IMG/VR virus record: IMGVR_UViG_2537561979_000003
Reading direction: 5' to 3' (one strand)
DNA: 64,000 bases
DNA from: a virus
Taxonomy: Duplodnaviria; Heunggongvirae; Uroviricota; Caudoviricetes
Position 1 is the stretch's first letter, and every line of letters begins with the position of its first letter. The position numbers were made by a program, and so were the translations under genes. This document shows positions 45,214 through 47,347 of this stretch, in pieces. The notes beneath the pieces were generated by a model that did no database searches, was not told the origin of the DNA, and saw only the letters and a program-made list of their open reading frames with translations.

Positions 45214-45237
45214 AAAGCTCCTTCGGGAGCTTTTTTG
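45214..45237 (+). terminator. Intrinsic terminator
   Basis: aaagctcc-ttcg-ggagcttt followed by TTTTTT. Confidence 0.7.
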
Positions 45238-45277
45238 TGCTTAAATTATGCCGGTATAGATAGATTTTGAGCATGTT

Positions 45278-45574
45278 ATGGAAATTGATTTTTCATACTC
45301 TCCTGAGACGATAGAAAGAAGATTCGAAATAATTGGATGCATAACTATTTCAGATGAGCATTATTGGGTTCTCTATGATGCCAATACATGGTTATGTGCC
45401 TTAGCAGAATGTCAGCCATCGTTATGTGTAGGGGAGGGGGCTTTTCGACATAAGGTGCTGGCTACACTTGAAGTGAACACGTTACGATATTGGTGTGTAG
45501 AAATACTTAGTGATAACAAAGAATTGCATTTATTATTGCTGAATAAGTGTGCTTCTCTGCGCAGAAACGCATGA
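45278..45574 (+). CDS. Hypothetical Cys-containing protein, 98 aa, in AT-rich island
   Basis: ATG with own promoter-like AT-rich leader; convergent with next two genes. Confidence 0.45.
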   Translation: MEIDFSYSPETIERRFEIIGCITISDEHYWVLYDANTWLCALAECQPSLCVGEGAFRHKVLATLEVNTLRYWCVEILSDNKELHLLLLNKCASLRRNA

Positions 45575-45701
45575 GAAAACCCAACCGCTCTCCAGGAATT
45601 ATCAGAAGAATATATGCGGAAAGTTATAGCTAGCTATTGAAAAGCTAAAGTAGATCGGTTAGATTTGCCTTACTCATCTACCATGTGTAGAAAGAGCGAT
45701 C

Positions 45702-45742
45702 GAACCCGATACATAGCAATATGTGTCGGGTTCAGCTTTTTT
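45702..45742. terminator. Bidirectional terminator between convergent genes
   Basis: gaacccga-N16-tcgggttc stem followed by TTTTTT. Confidence 0.55.
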
Positions 45743-46205
45743 ATGTCCCAAGTGCTCTTTTTCTGCTTTGTTTGAGTGTTCTGATTTTACTGTCATAGGT
45801 TACAACATAGGCTGTTTTGAGAAGCCAATAGTCTCTACGTGCGGATAGCACAACAACGTAGTTTTCACACTCATTCCAGATTACCCACTCTTCAGTTGGT
45901 CCTCGTCTTTCAGACCAACATGATATATCGCAATGGTTATAATTCCTTATCATATGCGCGATCCAGCGAATTCGCTTGCACCGTTCAAGATCGGGTATAC
46001 GTTCTTCTTCTTTTTTTCCCTCTGATACTAAATGCCAAAATCCGAACTCTTTCCCATCATATTCCGGTGAATAACGTAATCGAACAGGGAGACCCTTAAA
46101 CGTTATATTAGAGATTAAAATGTCTTCTCTGACAACATCATATACATCGTCTATATACTCTTGCCAACTTCCATTGAAGTACAATAAATCTGGCATTTGA
46201 AGCAT
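45741..46205 (-). CDS. Hypothetical protein, about 154 aa, partner of DUF3800-like gene
   Basis: Start (MLQMPDLLYF) overlaps stop of upstream gene; AT-rich. Confidence 0.5.
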   Translation of the reverse strand: MLQMPDLLYFNGSWQEYIDDVYDVVREDILISNITFKGLPVRLRYSPEYDGKEFGFWHLVSEGKKEEERIPDLERCKRIRWIAHMIRNYNHCDISCWSERRGPTEEWVIWNECENYVVVLSARRDYWLLKTAYVVTYDSKIRTLKQSRKRALGT

Positions 46206-46909
46206 CAGCGAGCCTCCCACACGAAAATATTAAATTTACTTTCTGTTGGAAGAGTGCTTTTTAGTAACTCCCTGTTTGTATGTGATTTTATCCTGTTTAT
46301 GACTTGGATTTTTCCCGCGTTGCTATTCATTCCTCGATGAACGTAGCCTAACGCACCAATGAAAAGATCCGTTAGCTGCAATTGTTGCACTTCATGAGAT
46401 CGTATATGTTGAATTCTGTTTATCGACTCATGATTGTAATCATAGCGATCATTGTGAAGAACCCCTCTTAATTTCTCAATTTTTTCAATACCTAAAGTAT
46501 CTTTTATATCTAGGTAGATATTGTATGTGTTGTTACTTTCTATTATGTTTTTTAAGACATAAAAAAACATCTTATAATAGAAAGTATTATGATCTTGATG
46601 GAATCGAGCATGGTCCAGTTGCTCTTTATCAGGAACAACAACACCTCTAAAGCGCAATGCTGGGTTGCTGAAGAAGTAATCTACGACATCTAAGTAAAAT
46701 TCAACTTTGGACGCAGATACTTTAGTCCACTTGATTTCGAAATCAGGTTTTAGATTGTGTTTTAATTTTAATTCCTTGATGTCTCTAGCAATTTTTTTTG
46801 TGATAGAGCCAGGACACCAAAGTGCACCCAATACCATGACTTTATTATGATCATTTAGTAGGTGACAGGATTCATCGCAGAATACATTAAATGTTCTTCG
46901 GTTCAACAT
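46205..46909 (-). CDS. DUF3800-like protein, 234 aa
   Basis: N-terminal ..FNVFCDESCHL.. resembles the DES motif of DUF3800; tentative. Confidence 0.45.
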   Translation of the reverse strand: MLNRRTFNVFCDESCHLLNDHNKVMVLGALWCPGSITKKIARDIKELKLKHNLKPDFEIKWTKVSASKVEFYLDVVDYFFSNPALRFRGVVVPDKEQLDHARFHQDHNTFYYKMFFYVLKNIIESNNTYNIYLDIKDTLGIEKIEKLRGVLHNDRYDYNHESINRIQHIRSHEVQQLQLTDLFIGALGYVHRGMNSNAGKIQVINRIKSHTNRELLKSTLPTESKFNIFVWEAR

Positions 46910-47057
46910 GTTAACTCCACTTATTGTTAGGTAGAATTGTCCGTTAGTTGTTTATTAATTGCAATAAAGGGACGTCCAGATTTGACAACTATGTCCTCTT
47001 ACCAGGACACCTATGAGTTTGCCTCATGGCAAACTAGAGGTGTTGAAAGTATGCATG

Positions 47058-47074
47058 GTTATAATTAGAGCAAT
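47058..47074 (-). promoter_or_regulatory. Weak C1-operator-like site (12/17)
   Basis: ATTGCTCTAATTATAAC on minus strand. Confidence 0.3.
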
Positions 47075-47077
47075 TCA

Positions 47078-47347
47078 TTACCCTCTGAATCCTGCCGGTA
47101 TACCCCATTGTTCGTTATCTTTATTTTTGGCTAAAACCGCATTAAGAGCTTCGTTTACCGTCATGCAATGCGGCAGATTATCGAAGTTTGATATCCCGCC
47201 AATATCAGGAGAACGCTTGTTCTTCAGGAAAGCATATTTCCGCGAAGCCGCCTCTACTTTCTGCTTGAACTCATGTTTTTGAGCGCGTTTTTTGGATAAC
47301 CGCAGATTGTCTGCCTTTGCTTTTGCCTCAGCGATCCAGGAAGTCAA
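47078..47347 (-). CDS. Small basic protein, 89 aa
   Basis: ATGA overlap with upstream HTH gene. Confidence 0.4.
   Translation of the reverse strand: MTSWIAEAKAKADNLRLSKKRAQKHEFKQKVEAASRKYAFLKNKRSPDIGGISNFDNLPHCMTVNEALNAVLAKNKDNEQWGIPAGFRG

What the first reader, a model, noticed from the sequence alone, without database searches (positions are those of the whole stretch)
45241..46950. AT-rich three-gene cargo island (DUF3800-like protein + partner, plus convergent small gene) between the late operon and the kilA/repL region
GC drops to roughly 30-37% here against ~50-57% in the flanking late genes. It is bounded by strong terminators (45214..45237 and 45702..45742) and a weak operator-like site (47058..47074). 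It contains a tightly coupled two-gene operon (234-aa DUF3800-like protein with an N-terminal DES-type motif, then a ~154-aa protein whose start overlaps the upstream stop) and a convergent 98-aa Cys-containing gene with its own promoter. None of the three proteins shows a motif I can tie to phage morphogenesis or replication. This organisation is typical of horizontally acquired defence, abortive-infection or toxin-antitoxin cargo in phage-plasmids. It is my best candidate for an undescribed system in the window.
Basis: partly seen in the sequence, partly recalled or inferred. Interest (0 to 1): 0.75.

Follow-up and report, generated by a model that had tools for sequence, protein, structure and literature searches.

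The report
P1 rlfAB module with hidden sRNA
The AT-rich island is the long-known but never characterised rlfA-rlfB-pmgF region of phage P1, and its two-gene core turns out always to carry a previously unannotated small RNA gene, which makes it look like a widespread RNA-controlled nuclease module of the toxin-antitoxin or anti-phage kind.

Summary
Window 45237-47063 is the lowest-GC stretch of the window and holds the three ORFs described. This region is also already published as a variable, low-GC hotspot of P1-like phage-plasmids.

No function has been shown for these genes. RlfA is a DUF3800 protein with an RNase H2-like fold, and RlfA plus RlfB match the PADLOC candidate system PDC-M04. 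The pair is conserved across six phyla. It often sits between hsdS and hsdR of type I R-M operons, or next to integrases. PmgF does not travel with it.

The new result is a ~70-nt small RNA gene, convergent with rlfB (window ~45672-45742, + strand). It has its own sigma70 promoter, a conserved covarying hairpin and a terminator hairpin.
- It follows rlfB in 21 of 21 loci found through the proteins.
- 74% of metagenomic hits to its core have RlfB next to them.
- Rfam has no family for it.
- Stand-alone copies lie in phage tRNA arrays and on E. coli chromosomes.

My best reading is a three-part, type III-TA-like abortive-infection module. This is inferred, not shown.

The parts
46205..46909 (-). 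rlfA (P7 rapA): 234-aa DUF3800 protein with an RNase H2-like fold. Invariant residues include D12 E13 S14 C15 H16, E58, D134, D137, Q178 and D181.
45741..46205 (-). rlfB (P7 rapB): 154-aa partner protein. Its start codon shares one base with the rlfA stop (TGATG). No Pfam family. The fold is tentatively RelE/colicin-D-like (BECR).
45637..45665 (+). Predicted sigma70 promoter of the small RNA: -35 TTGAAA (45637-45642), 17-nt spacer, -10 TAGATT (45660-45665). The predicted start is at about 45672.
   Evidence: Consensus scan. An equivalent promoter is found at the same place in RlfAB loci of other phyla: mean 8.5 of 12 matches against 6.4 in shuffles and 6.0 on the opposite strand. The spacer is 17 nt in 22 of 24 loci, and the -10 ends 7-9 nt before the hairpin in 20 of 24.
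45672..45742 (+). Predicted ~70-nt small RNA, convergent with rlfB. Conserved hairpin HP2' is at 45673-45696 (CUC-A-UCUAC-CAUGU-GUAGA-AA-GAG), the linker at 45697-45701, the variable terminator hairpin HP1' at 45702-45733 (GCAA loop), and the tail AGCUUUUUU at 45734-45742, which overlaps the rlfB stop codon.
   Evidence: Present right after rlfB in 21 of 21 loci found through the proteins, from 6 phyla. Covariation: 98.5% of cells paired, 9 of 15 pairs with compensatory changes, 0 of 500 shuffles as good. Covariance model R1 gives a single hit in the window, 45664-45742 (+), 86.5 bits, E = 3e-21. No Rfam family at threshold.
45278..45574 (+). pmgF: 98-aa P1 gene of unknown function. It lies inside the variable island but is not a conserved partner of rlfAB. 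Its transcripts would run into the sRNA and stop at HP1'.
   Evidence: 96-99% aa identity to P1 PmgF and P7 Upf52.1. Otherwise found only as a partial match in phage SJ46, and absent from all other RlfAB loci. Non-essential in the P1 CRISPRi map (PMC10695390). No Pfam, PADLOC or NCBIfam hit.
45214..45233 (+). Terminator hairpin after bplB. It marks the left edge of the variable island: homology with island-less P1-like phages ends at 45236.
47058..47074 (-). C1 repressor operator Orlf (former Op55), just downstream of repL. It marks the right edge of the variable island: homology with island-less phages resumes at 47064.
   Evidence: P1 and P7 annotation. Sequence read. Boundary.

Best explanation
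The functional unit is three parts: rlfA, rlfB and a convergent ~70-nt small RNA. I read it as an RNA-controlled nuclease module of the toxin-antitoxin or abortive-infection kind, carried as accessory cargo by P1, other prophages, integrative elements and type I R-M operons. RlfA is a DUF3800 protein with an RNase H2-like fold and an intact set of acidic residues. RlfB is a small partner made by coupled translation, possibly with a RelE/colicin-D-like RNase fold. The two are proposed to form the effector. The small RNA is transcribed from its own constitutive promoter towards the 3' end of rlfB. Its invariant hairpin HP2' is proposed to bind the proteins and keep them inactive, as the antitoxin RNA does in type III TA systems. 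When infection or loss of the element stops its supply, the nuclease would be released. Stand-alone copies of the same RNA in phage tRNA arrays and on E. coli chromosomes would then act as decoy antidotes. Shown here: the identity of the genes, the RlfA fold, the strict three-way linkage, the RNA's structure, strand and promoter, and the genomic contexts. Inferred: nuclease activity, toxicity, RNA-protein binding, the direction of control and any anti-phage effect.
For: (1) Linkage. RlfA is immediately followed by RlfB, with overlapping stop and start codons, in every locus examined. The RNA element follows the rlfB stop in 21 of 21 loci found through the proteins, from Pseudomonadota, Nitrospirota, Bacteroidota, Verrucomicrobiota, Planctomycetota and Chloroflexota. 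In the reverse direction, 81 of 110 metagenome hits to the 20-nt core have RlfB on the same strand ending 27-112 nt upstream.

(2) The RNA is real and strand-specific. HP2' and HP1' covary. Thirteen G-U cells would be A-C on the other strand. HP1' has GNRA loops and a 3' U-run. A sigma70 promoter sits at a fixed distance in 20-22 of 24 loci. The element is co-oriented with tRNA genes in all 9 phage tRNA-array cases checked.

(4) Defence-type contexts. Both proteins match PADLOC candidate PDC-M04. The pair sits between hsdS and hsdR, on the same strand, in 19 of 49 loci with enough flank. It sits beside AbiP2 and pAgo in Algoriphagus and beside integrases at island edges. It occupies a variable hotspot that other P1-like phages fill with other cargo, such as a gene annotated MokW.

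(5) It is dispensable for P1 growth (PMC10695390).

(6) Precedents. DUF3800 is the effector of type VII retrons and is already known to associate with 11 unrelated structured RNAs, several of them ending in terminators (PMC7736814; PMC5737381).
Against: No experiment on RlfA, RlfB or PDC-M04 was found, so toxicity, RNA binding and anti-phage activity are all untested. The RlfB fold assignment is weak: Foldseek gives nothing significant. In P1 a C1 operator (Orlf) lies upstream of rlfA, and rlfA/rlfB are reported as induced with the early lytic genes (bioRxiv 10.64898/2025.12.28.696737). That fits poorly with a system that is meant to guard the lysogen. The RNA is not a tandem-repeat array upstream of the toxin, as it is in known type III TA systems. 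The phage stand-alone copies could have a function of their own, unrelated to RlfAB.
Confidence: 0.5

Rival explanations
1. Lytic-replication helper, as the historical names imply ('replication-linked function' in P1, 'replication-associated protein' in P7). RlfA would act as an RNase H that processes the transcript or R-loop at oriL inside repL to prime RepL-dependent replication.
For: The genes lie directly downstream of kilA-repL, behind a C1 operator. The fold is RNase H2-like. rlfA/rlfB are reported as co-induced with repL early in P1vir infection.
Against: rlfA and rlfB are non-essential, and repL itself is also scored non-essential, in the CRISPRi map. Many P1-like phages keep kilA-repL but lack rlfAB. 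The pair and its RNA occur in six phyla in R-M operons and integrative elements that have no repL. The name rests on position only (annotation notes).
Confidence: 0.07
2. Addiction module only. The three parts form a toxin-antitoxin system whose role is to stabilise the element that carries it (plasmid prophage, island or R-M operon) by killing cells that lose it, with no role in phage defence.
For: The architecture evidence is the same as for the main explanation. P1 is a low-copy plasmid and already carries phd-doc. Orphan chromosomal copies of the RNA in E. coli look like anti-addiction antidotes: the element has 61 chromosomal places, against 5 for rlfAB.
Against: Embedding in type I R-M operons and next to AbiP2 and pAgo, and copies of the RNA in lytic-type phage tRNA arrays, point to a phage-host conflict. 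The two roles do not exclude each other.
Confidence: 0.2
3. RNA-scaffolded or RNA-guided nuclease. RlfA, with its RNase H/PIWI-like fold, uses the small RNA as a cofactor to find and cut nucleic acid. The RNA would be an activating subunit, not an inhibitor.
Against: The RNA has no variable single-stranded segment long enough to act as a guide. The 5' leader is 7-9 nt and the variable part (HP1') is a closed hairpin. The HP2' loop shows no complementarity to the rlfA translation start.
Confidence: 0.15
4. The 'RNA element' is only a transcription terminator or insulator that separates convergent units, with no specific link to RlfAB function.
For: HP1' followed by a U-run is a standard intrinsic terminator and ends pmgF transcripts in P1. 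The best Rfam hit is a sub-threshold match to a generic hairpin-plus-terminator antisense RNA (ctRNA_pGA1, 23.5 bits against a cut-off of 45).
Against: A terminator does not need a second hairpin that stays nearly sequence-invariant across six phyla while the adjacent proteins diverge to 30-50% identity. Nor does it need its own promoter at a fixed distance, or independent copies inside tRNA arrays.
Confidence: 0.05

Closest known systems
Phage P1 rlfA/rlfB/pmgF (P7 rapA/rapB/upf52.1)
   Same: These are the same genes: 97.8% (P1) and 98.6% (P7) DNA identity over 2.8 kb, in the same order, with the same composition and the same C1 operator Orlf.
   Different: Nothing differs at gene level. The reference annotation has no RNA gene, promoter or terminator feature between pmgF and rlfB, and its 'replication-linked' label is not supported by the distribution found here.
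PADLOC candidate system PDC-M04 (PDC-M04A + PDC-M04B)
   Same: RlfA matches PDC-M04A (E = 7.8e-96), RlfB matches PDC-M04B (E = 1.1e-52), and the two genes are adjacent.
   Different: PDC-M04 is a computational candidate defined by two proteins. I found no paper that names it. The RNA component described here is not part of that definition.
DUF3800-associated RNA motifs DUF3800-I to -XI (Weinberg et al. 2017, PMC5737381)
   Same: A structured RNA encoded next to a DUF3800 gene, ending in a Rho-independent terminator. Several of those motifs are found in more than one phylum, and for DUF3800-I the gene can lie on either strand and either side.
   Different: No Rfam 15 family reaches threshold on this element, even in a 96-nt scan. 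This motif is tied to the RlfA subfamily together with RlfB, has a defined promoter, and also occurs alone in phage tRNA arrays.
Type III toxin-antitoxin / abortive-infection systems (ToxIN, CptIN, TenpIN; from my own knowledge)
   Same: The proposed logic is the same: a nuclease held in check by a small, constitutively made, structured RNA encoded beside it; carriage on mobile elements; and possible phage-encoded RNA mimics, as pseudo-ToxI is for ToxIN.
   Different: Here there are two proteins with unrelated folds (RNase H2-like plus a small partner). The RNA is a single copy, convergent and downstream, not a tandem-repeat array upstream. Binding and inhibition are untested.
PrrC anticodon nuclease in the prr type Ic R-M locus (from my own knowledge)
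   Same: An accessory nuclease module inserted between hsdS and hsdR of a type I R-M operon, as in 19 of 49 RlfAB loci with enough flank.
   Different: No sequence relationship to PrrC was detected (no such Pfam or PADLOC hit). The P1 copy is not in an R-M operon. This module has an RNA component.
Type VII retrons (RT + msr/msd + DUF3800 effector; PMC7736814)
   Same: A DUF3800 RNase H2-like effector paired with a structured nucleic acid.
   Different: There is no reverse transcriptase in the island. RlfA keeps the C-terminal QxxD motif, whose conserved Q the retron-linked DUF3800 proteins lack. The partner is RlfB.

Membership tests
P1 rlfA/rlfB/pmgF locus | Near-identity to the reference P1 and P7 genes, in the same order, between bplB and repL | tested here: met
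   97.8% (P1) and 98.6% (P7) identity over 2801 nt with 100% coverage. Annotations. Protein identities 96-99.6%.
Pfam DUF3800 (PF12686) | HMM score above the gathering cut-off | tested here: met
   54.2 bits against a cut-off of 21, E = 3.5e-14, covering model positions 1-148 of 149.
Pfam DUF3800 (PF12686) | N-terminal DE motif and C-terminal QxxD motif (as described in PMC7736814) | tested here: met
   D12-E13 and Q178..D181 (QLTD) are invariant in 38 homologues. Motif description.
Pfam DUF3800 (PF12686) | RNase H-like (RNase H2-like) fold | tested here: met
PADLOC PDC-M04 | Both component HMMs (M04A and M04B) match adjacent genes | tested here: met
   E = 7.8e-96 and 1.1e-52. The genes overlap by one base.
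PADLOC PDC-M04 | Demonstrated anti-phage activity | not testable with these tools
   No paper in the library names PDC-M04 or tests rlfA/rlfB.
Rfam DUF3800-I to -XI RNA motifs | Covariance-model match at or near the gathering score | tested here: not met
   No DUF3800 motif appears at E <= 10 in a 3.5-kb scan or in a 96-nt scan, nor at gathering score in 15 loci that carry the element.
Type III toxin-antitoxin (ToxIN-like) | The antitoxin is an array of tandem RNA repeats upstream of the toxin gene, separated from it by a terminator | tested here: not met
   There is a single copy, downstream of rlfB and convergent with it.
Type III toxin-antitoxin (ToxIN-like) | The RNA binds the toxin protein directly and inhibits it | not testable with these tools
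   This needs co-expression, pull-down and toxicity assays.
RelE/ParE-colicin D (BECR) RNase fold, for RlfB | Significant structural similarity to members of the fold | tested here: inconclusive
R-M-embedded suicide nuclease (PrrC-like arrangement) | Gene(s) inserted between hsdS and hsdR of a type I R-M operon, on the same strand | tested here: inconclusive
   Met in many relatives: 19 of 49 loci with at least 3 kb of downstream flank, with a start overlapping the hsdS stop in L013 and L016. Not met for the copy in this window, which lies between bplB and repL.
Type VII retron | Reverse transcriptase and msr/msd adjacent to the DUF3800 gene | tested here: not met
   There is no RT ORF in the island. 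The only RT seen next to a relative is AbiP2, a separate defence gene.

The most novel reading that the evidence does not exclude
RlfA, RlfB and the small RNA form a new class of RNA-antitoxin (type III-like) abortive-infection system that is widespread across bacterial phyla and often guards type I R-M operons. Phages fight back by carrying decoy copies of the antitoxin RNA inside their tRNA gene arrays, which would be a natural, widespread RNA anti-defence. P1, a textbook phage, would have carried both an unannotated small RNA gene and this system unnoticed for decades.
Probability: 0.25. Interest if true: 0.85.

Novelty: new variant of a known kind. Interest (0 to 1): 0.66.

Why it matters
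The genes themselves are old news: P1 rlfA/rlfB, annotated in the reference P1 record and still without a function. What matters is the following.
- The pair belongs to a very large family with no assigned function. RlfB has 1,782 cluster representatives. More than 5,000 proteins match RlfA at E <= 0.001, and the 120 best of them share 52-100% identity across phyla.
- The pair always comes with a small RNA that no annotation or Rfam family covers.
- The same RNA is scattered through phage tRNA arrays.

Together these give a concrete, testable hypothesis for three open puzzles at once: what DUF3800 proteins and their many associated RNAs do, what P1's 'replication-linked' genes are for, and what some of the unexplained non-tRNA sequences in phage tRNA clusters might be. 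P1 and E. coli make all of the tests easy.

Tried and rejected
1. A known DUF3800 RNA motif in Rfam: none was found.
2. PmgF as a third protein component: rejected, because it is absent from every non-P1 RlfAB locus.
3. Antisense control of rlfA translation by the HP2' loop: no conserved complementarity at the rlfA start in 19 loci.
4. A hidden DUF3800 or other common protein next to the stand-alone phage copies: a Pfam scan of 136 neighbouring ORFs found no shared family, and tblastn found no RlfA or RlfB.
5. The element as a tRNA-like structure, hammerhead or HDV-like ribozyme: considered by eye and dropped, because the conserved core does not fit. No tool result supports any of them.
6. The rlfAB strand as the RNA strand: rejected on G-U versus A-C counts, tRNA co-orientation, GNRA loops and promoter position.
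7. Literature searches for rlfA/rlfB, PDC-M04, DUF3800 with defence, the motif sequence itself, and P1-like hotspots: no functional study turned up.
8. The afdb50 fold library was not available.
9. The chromosomal E. coli rlfAB type of L010 is absent from complete RefSeq E. coli genomes.
Full report
**1. What is at the coordinates.**
They are a 98-aa ORF at 45278-45574 (+), a 234-aa ORF at 46205-46909 (-), and a partner ORF at 45741-46205 (-), whose ATG shares one base with the upstream TGA. The interval is 37.2% GC against 47.9% for the window, and is the lowest of 623 sliding windows of the same length. Terminator-like hairpins sit at 45214-45233 and 45702-45733 on the + strand.

**2. Identity of the genes.**
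Megablast against phage genomes gives 100% coverage at 97.8% identity to reference P1 and 98.6% to P7. The features under the match are pmgF, rlfB, rlfA and repL in P1, and upf52.1, rapB, rapA and repL in P7. The 'weak operator' at 47058-47074 is the annotated C1 operator Orlf, formerly Op55.

Other P1-like phages (MH422554, SJ46, phi456 and others) match only the flanks. Homology stops at 45236 and resumes at 47064-47111, and the gap holds other cargo, such as a gene annotated MokW or three unrelated ORFs. The interval is thus a variable hotspot. That is already published: 'region 5 (rlfA, rlfB, pmgF)' is one of eight variable, low-GC regions of P1-like phage-plasmids (PMC9603915), and IS-mediated replacements of it have been described (PMC6906374).

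**3. What is known about function.**
Nothing experimental was found. The P1 notes say 'possibly associated with lytic replication', a label based on position. A genome-wide CRISPRi map scores rlfA, rlfB and pmgF as non-essential (PMC10695390). A preprint reports that rlfA/rlfB are induced with the early replication genes. No paper in the library names PDC-M04 or tests a DUF3800 defence system.

**4. The proteins.**
- **PmgF** has no informative match.

**5. Contexts of the pair elsewhere.**
In every locus fetched through RlfA or RlfB homologues, the two genes are adjacent with overlapping stop and start codons. PmgF is never there. Two contexts recur.
- **Between hsdS and hsdR of type I R-M operons, on the same strand.** Examples are Methylomonas, a Nitrospirota MAG and Algoriphagus, where the neighbours are AbiP2 and a pAgo. 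Overall this holds for 19 of 49 loci that have at least 3 kb of downstream flank.
- **Directly beside the integrase at the edge of a prophage or integrative element.** Examples are Enterobacter, E. coli and Burkholderia.

These are the classic addresses of defence and abortive-infection cargo.

**6. The unexpected third component.**
Comparing the DNA downstream of rlfB across loci showed a ~70-nt stretch that stays conserved at nucleotide level while the proteins diverge to 30-50% identity. It follows the rlfB stop in 21 of 21 loci found through the proteins, from six phyla. It consists of a variable hairpin (HP1') and a nearly invariant hairpin (HP2'; on the window's + strand CUC-A-UCYAC-CAUGU-GURGA-AR-GAG).

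Both helices covary. 98.5% of cells are paired, 9 of 15 pairs show compensatory changes, and none of 500 shuffles reaches the observed score.

The transcribed strand is the one convergent with rlfAB, which is the window's + strand. Four observations support this.
- Thirteen G-U cells would be A-C on the other strand.
- HP1' carries GNRA loops and is followed by a U-run.
- A TTGACN-17-nt-TANNNT-type promoter ends 7-9 nt before HP2' in 20 of 24 loci. The mean is 8.5 of 12 matches, against 6.4 in shuffles and 6.0 on the opposite strand.
- In phage tRNA arrays the element has the same orientation as the tRNA genes in all nine cases checked.

In the window the -35 is at 45637-45642 and the -10 at 45660-45665. 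HP2' is at 45673-45696, HP1' at 45702-45733, and the U-run reaches 45742, overlapping the rlfB stop codon. A covariance model built from 22 sequences finds exactly one copy in the 64-kb window (45664-45742 +, 86.5 bits, E = 3e-21). It finds none in P1-like phages that lack rlfAB.

Rfam 15 has no family for the element. The best hit is a sub-threshold match to a generic antisense RNA, ctRNA_pGA1 (23.5 bits against a cut-off of 45). A full-text search for the sequence found nothing.

**7. Reciprocal test and orphan copies.**
The 20-nt core was searched as an exact pattern.
- **Metagenome contigs:** 81 of 110 hits with enough flank (74%) have an RlfB homologue on the same strand ending 27-112 nt upstream. 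Its identity to my query set is 26-81%.
- **IMG/VR viral contigs:** only 13 of 65 hits have RlfAB. The rest have the same two-hairpin architecture (33-69 bits with the model) but no common protein neighbour. About 15 of 37 distinct loci have a tRNA gene on the same strand within roughly 200 nt, by my reading of the coordinates. Several of these sit in arrays of 7-37 tRNAs.
- **Complete E. coli genomes:** the element occurs in 174 of 5,426 genomes, at 118 plasmid and 61 chromosomal places. P1-type rlfAB occurs in 121 genomes, at 123 plasmid and only 5 chromosomal places. The chromosomal copies are therefore mostly orphans. In the two copies I examined, the element lies about 400 nt upstream of dinD, and in one of them also downstream of a prophage Q gene.

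**8. Interpretation.**
The strict three-way linkage, the RNA's own promoter, the near-invariance of one hairpin alongside a highly conserved protein, and the contexts all point to an RNA-protein module. Weinberg et al. had already noted that DUF3800 genes are accompanied by eleven unrelated structured RNAs, several ending in terminators, and could offer no hypothesis. Type VII retrons pair DUF3800 with msDNA.

The simplest unifying idea is that DUF3800 nucleases are effectors held or steered by a cognate structured nucleic acid. For RlfAB I favour a type III-TA-like arrangement, with the RNA as antidote, and an abortive-infection or R-M-guarding role like that of PrrC. The orphan RNA copies in phages and chromosomes would act as decoys or anti-addiction antidotes.

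This reading is an inference. The main points against it are:
- There are no experimental data.
- The RlfB fold call is weak.
- P1 places a C1 operator upstream of rlfA, and the genes appear to be switched on with the early lytic genes.
- The architecture differs from known type III systems.

The rivals are a replication helper, a pure addiction module, an RNA-scaffolded nuclease, and a mere terminator. They are weighed in the structured fields.

**9. Verdict.**
What remains of interest is that the rlfAB pair is an uncharacterised and very widespread candidate conflict system. It also carries a conserved small RNA gene that is absent from the P1 annotation and from Rfam. The RNA's orphan copies in phage tRNA arrays suggest an RNA-level arms race.

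Noticed in passing
L039, L049, L088, L090, L093 (IMG/VR contigs); for example L039:5222-5277, L049:3676-3747: Stand-alone copies of the two-hairpin RNA sit inside large phage tRNA arrays of 8-37 tRNAs, always on the tRNA strand. In four cases the next gene downstream is tRNA-Gly(GCC). No Rfam family covers them.
   Followed up: partly
L097:2993-3071 and L098:2993-3071 (E. coli chromosomes CP027587, CP025328): Orphan copy of the RNA with no rlfAB nearby, about 400 nt upstream of dinD. In one strain it also lies downstream of a prophage Q antiterminator gene. Comparing chromosomal places of the element (61) with those of rlfAB (5) suggests roughly 50 complete E. coli genomes carry such orphans.
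   Followed up: partly
L046:5798-5865 and L046:6027-6094: One viral contig carries two copies of the RNA about 160 nt apart. The second is diverged and was found only by the covariance model.
   Followed up: no
L008:6183-17617 (Algoriphagus pacificus): A dense defence island: hsdM/S, AbiP2 reverse transcriptase, RlfA, RlfB plus the RNA, hsdR, an unknown 325-aa protein and a long pAgo, all on one strand and on an integrase-bearing element.
   Followed up: partly
L003:2212-2367 and L004:2231-3869 (P1-like phages MH422554 and SJ46): The same bplB-repL hotspot holds other cargo: a gene annotated MokW in one phage, and three ORFs in SJ46. One of the SJ46 ORFs (210 aa) begins with a PmgF-like domain (47% identity over 64 aa).
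   Followed up: partly
window 45741-46205 and RefSeq E. coli plasmids (hits H27-H30, H63-H65): NCBI names RlfB 'oxidoreductase' in many records, and PHROGs labels it 'replication protein'. Nothing in the sequence or model supports either name, so both look like propagated misannotations.
   Followed up: no
L015:9206-9292 (Burkholderia multivorans): In this copy the conserved HP2' loop carries a 13-nt insertion that can itself form a small hairpin, so the loop tolerates an extension.
   Followed up: no
L012:8702-9155 (E. coli assembly DAFUPF01): Here rlfB is split by a frameshift, while rlfA and the RNA are intact. This may be a naturally inactivated copy.
   Followed up: no
window 45575-45745 (- strand): The pmgF-rlfB spacer folds much better than shuffled sequence (z = -4.7). 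Apart from the two hairpins, the predicted long-range pairing is not conserved in other loci, so I did not interpret it.
   Followed up: partly
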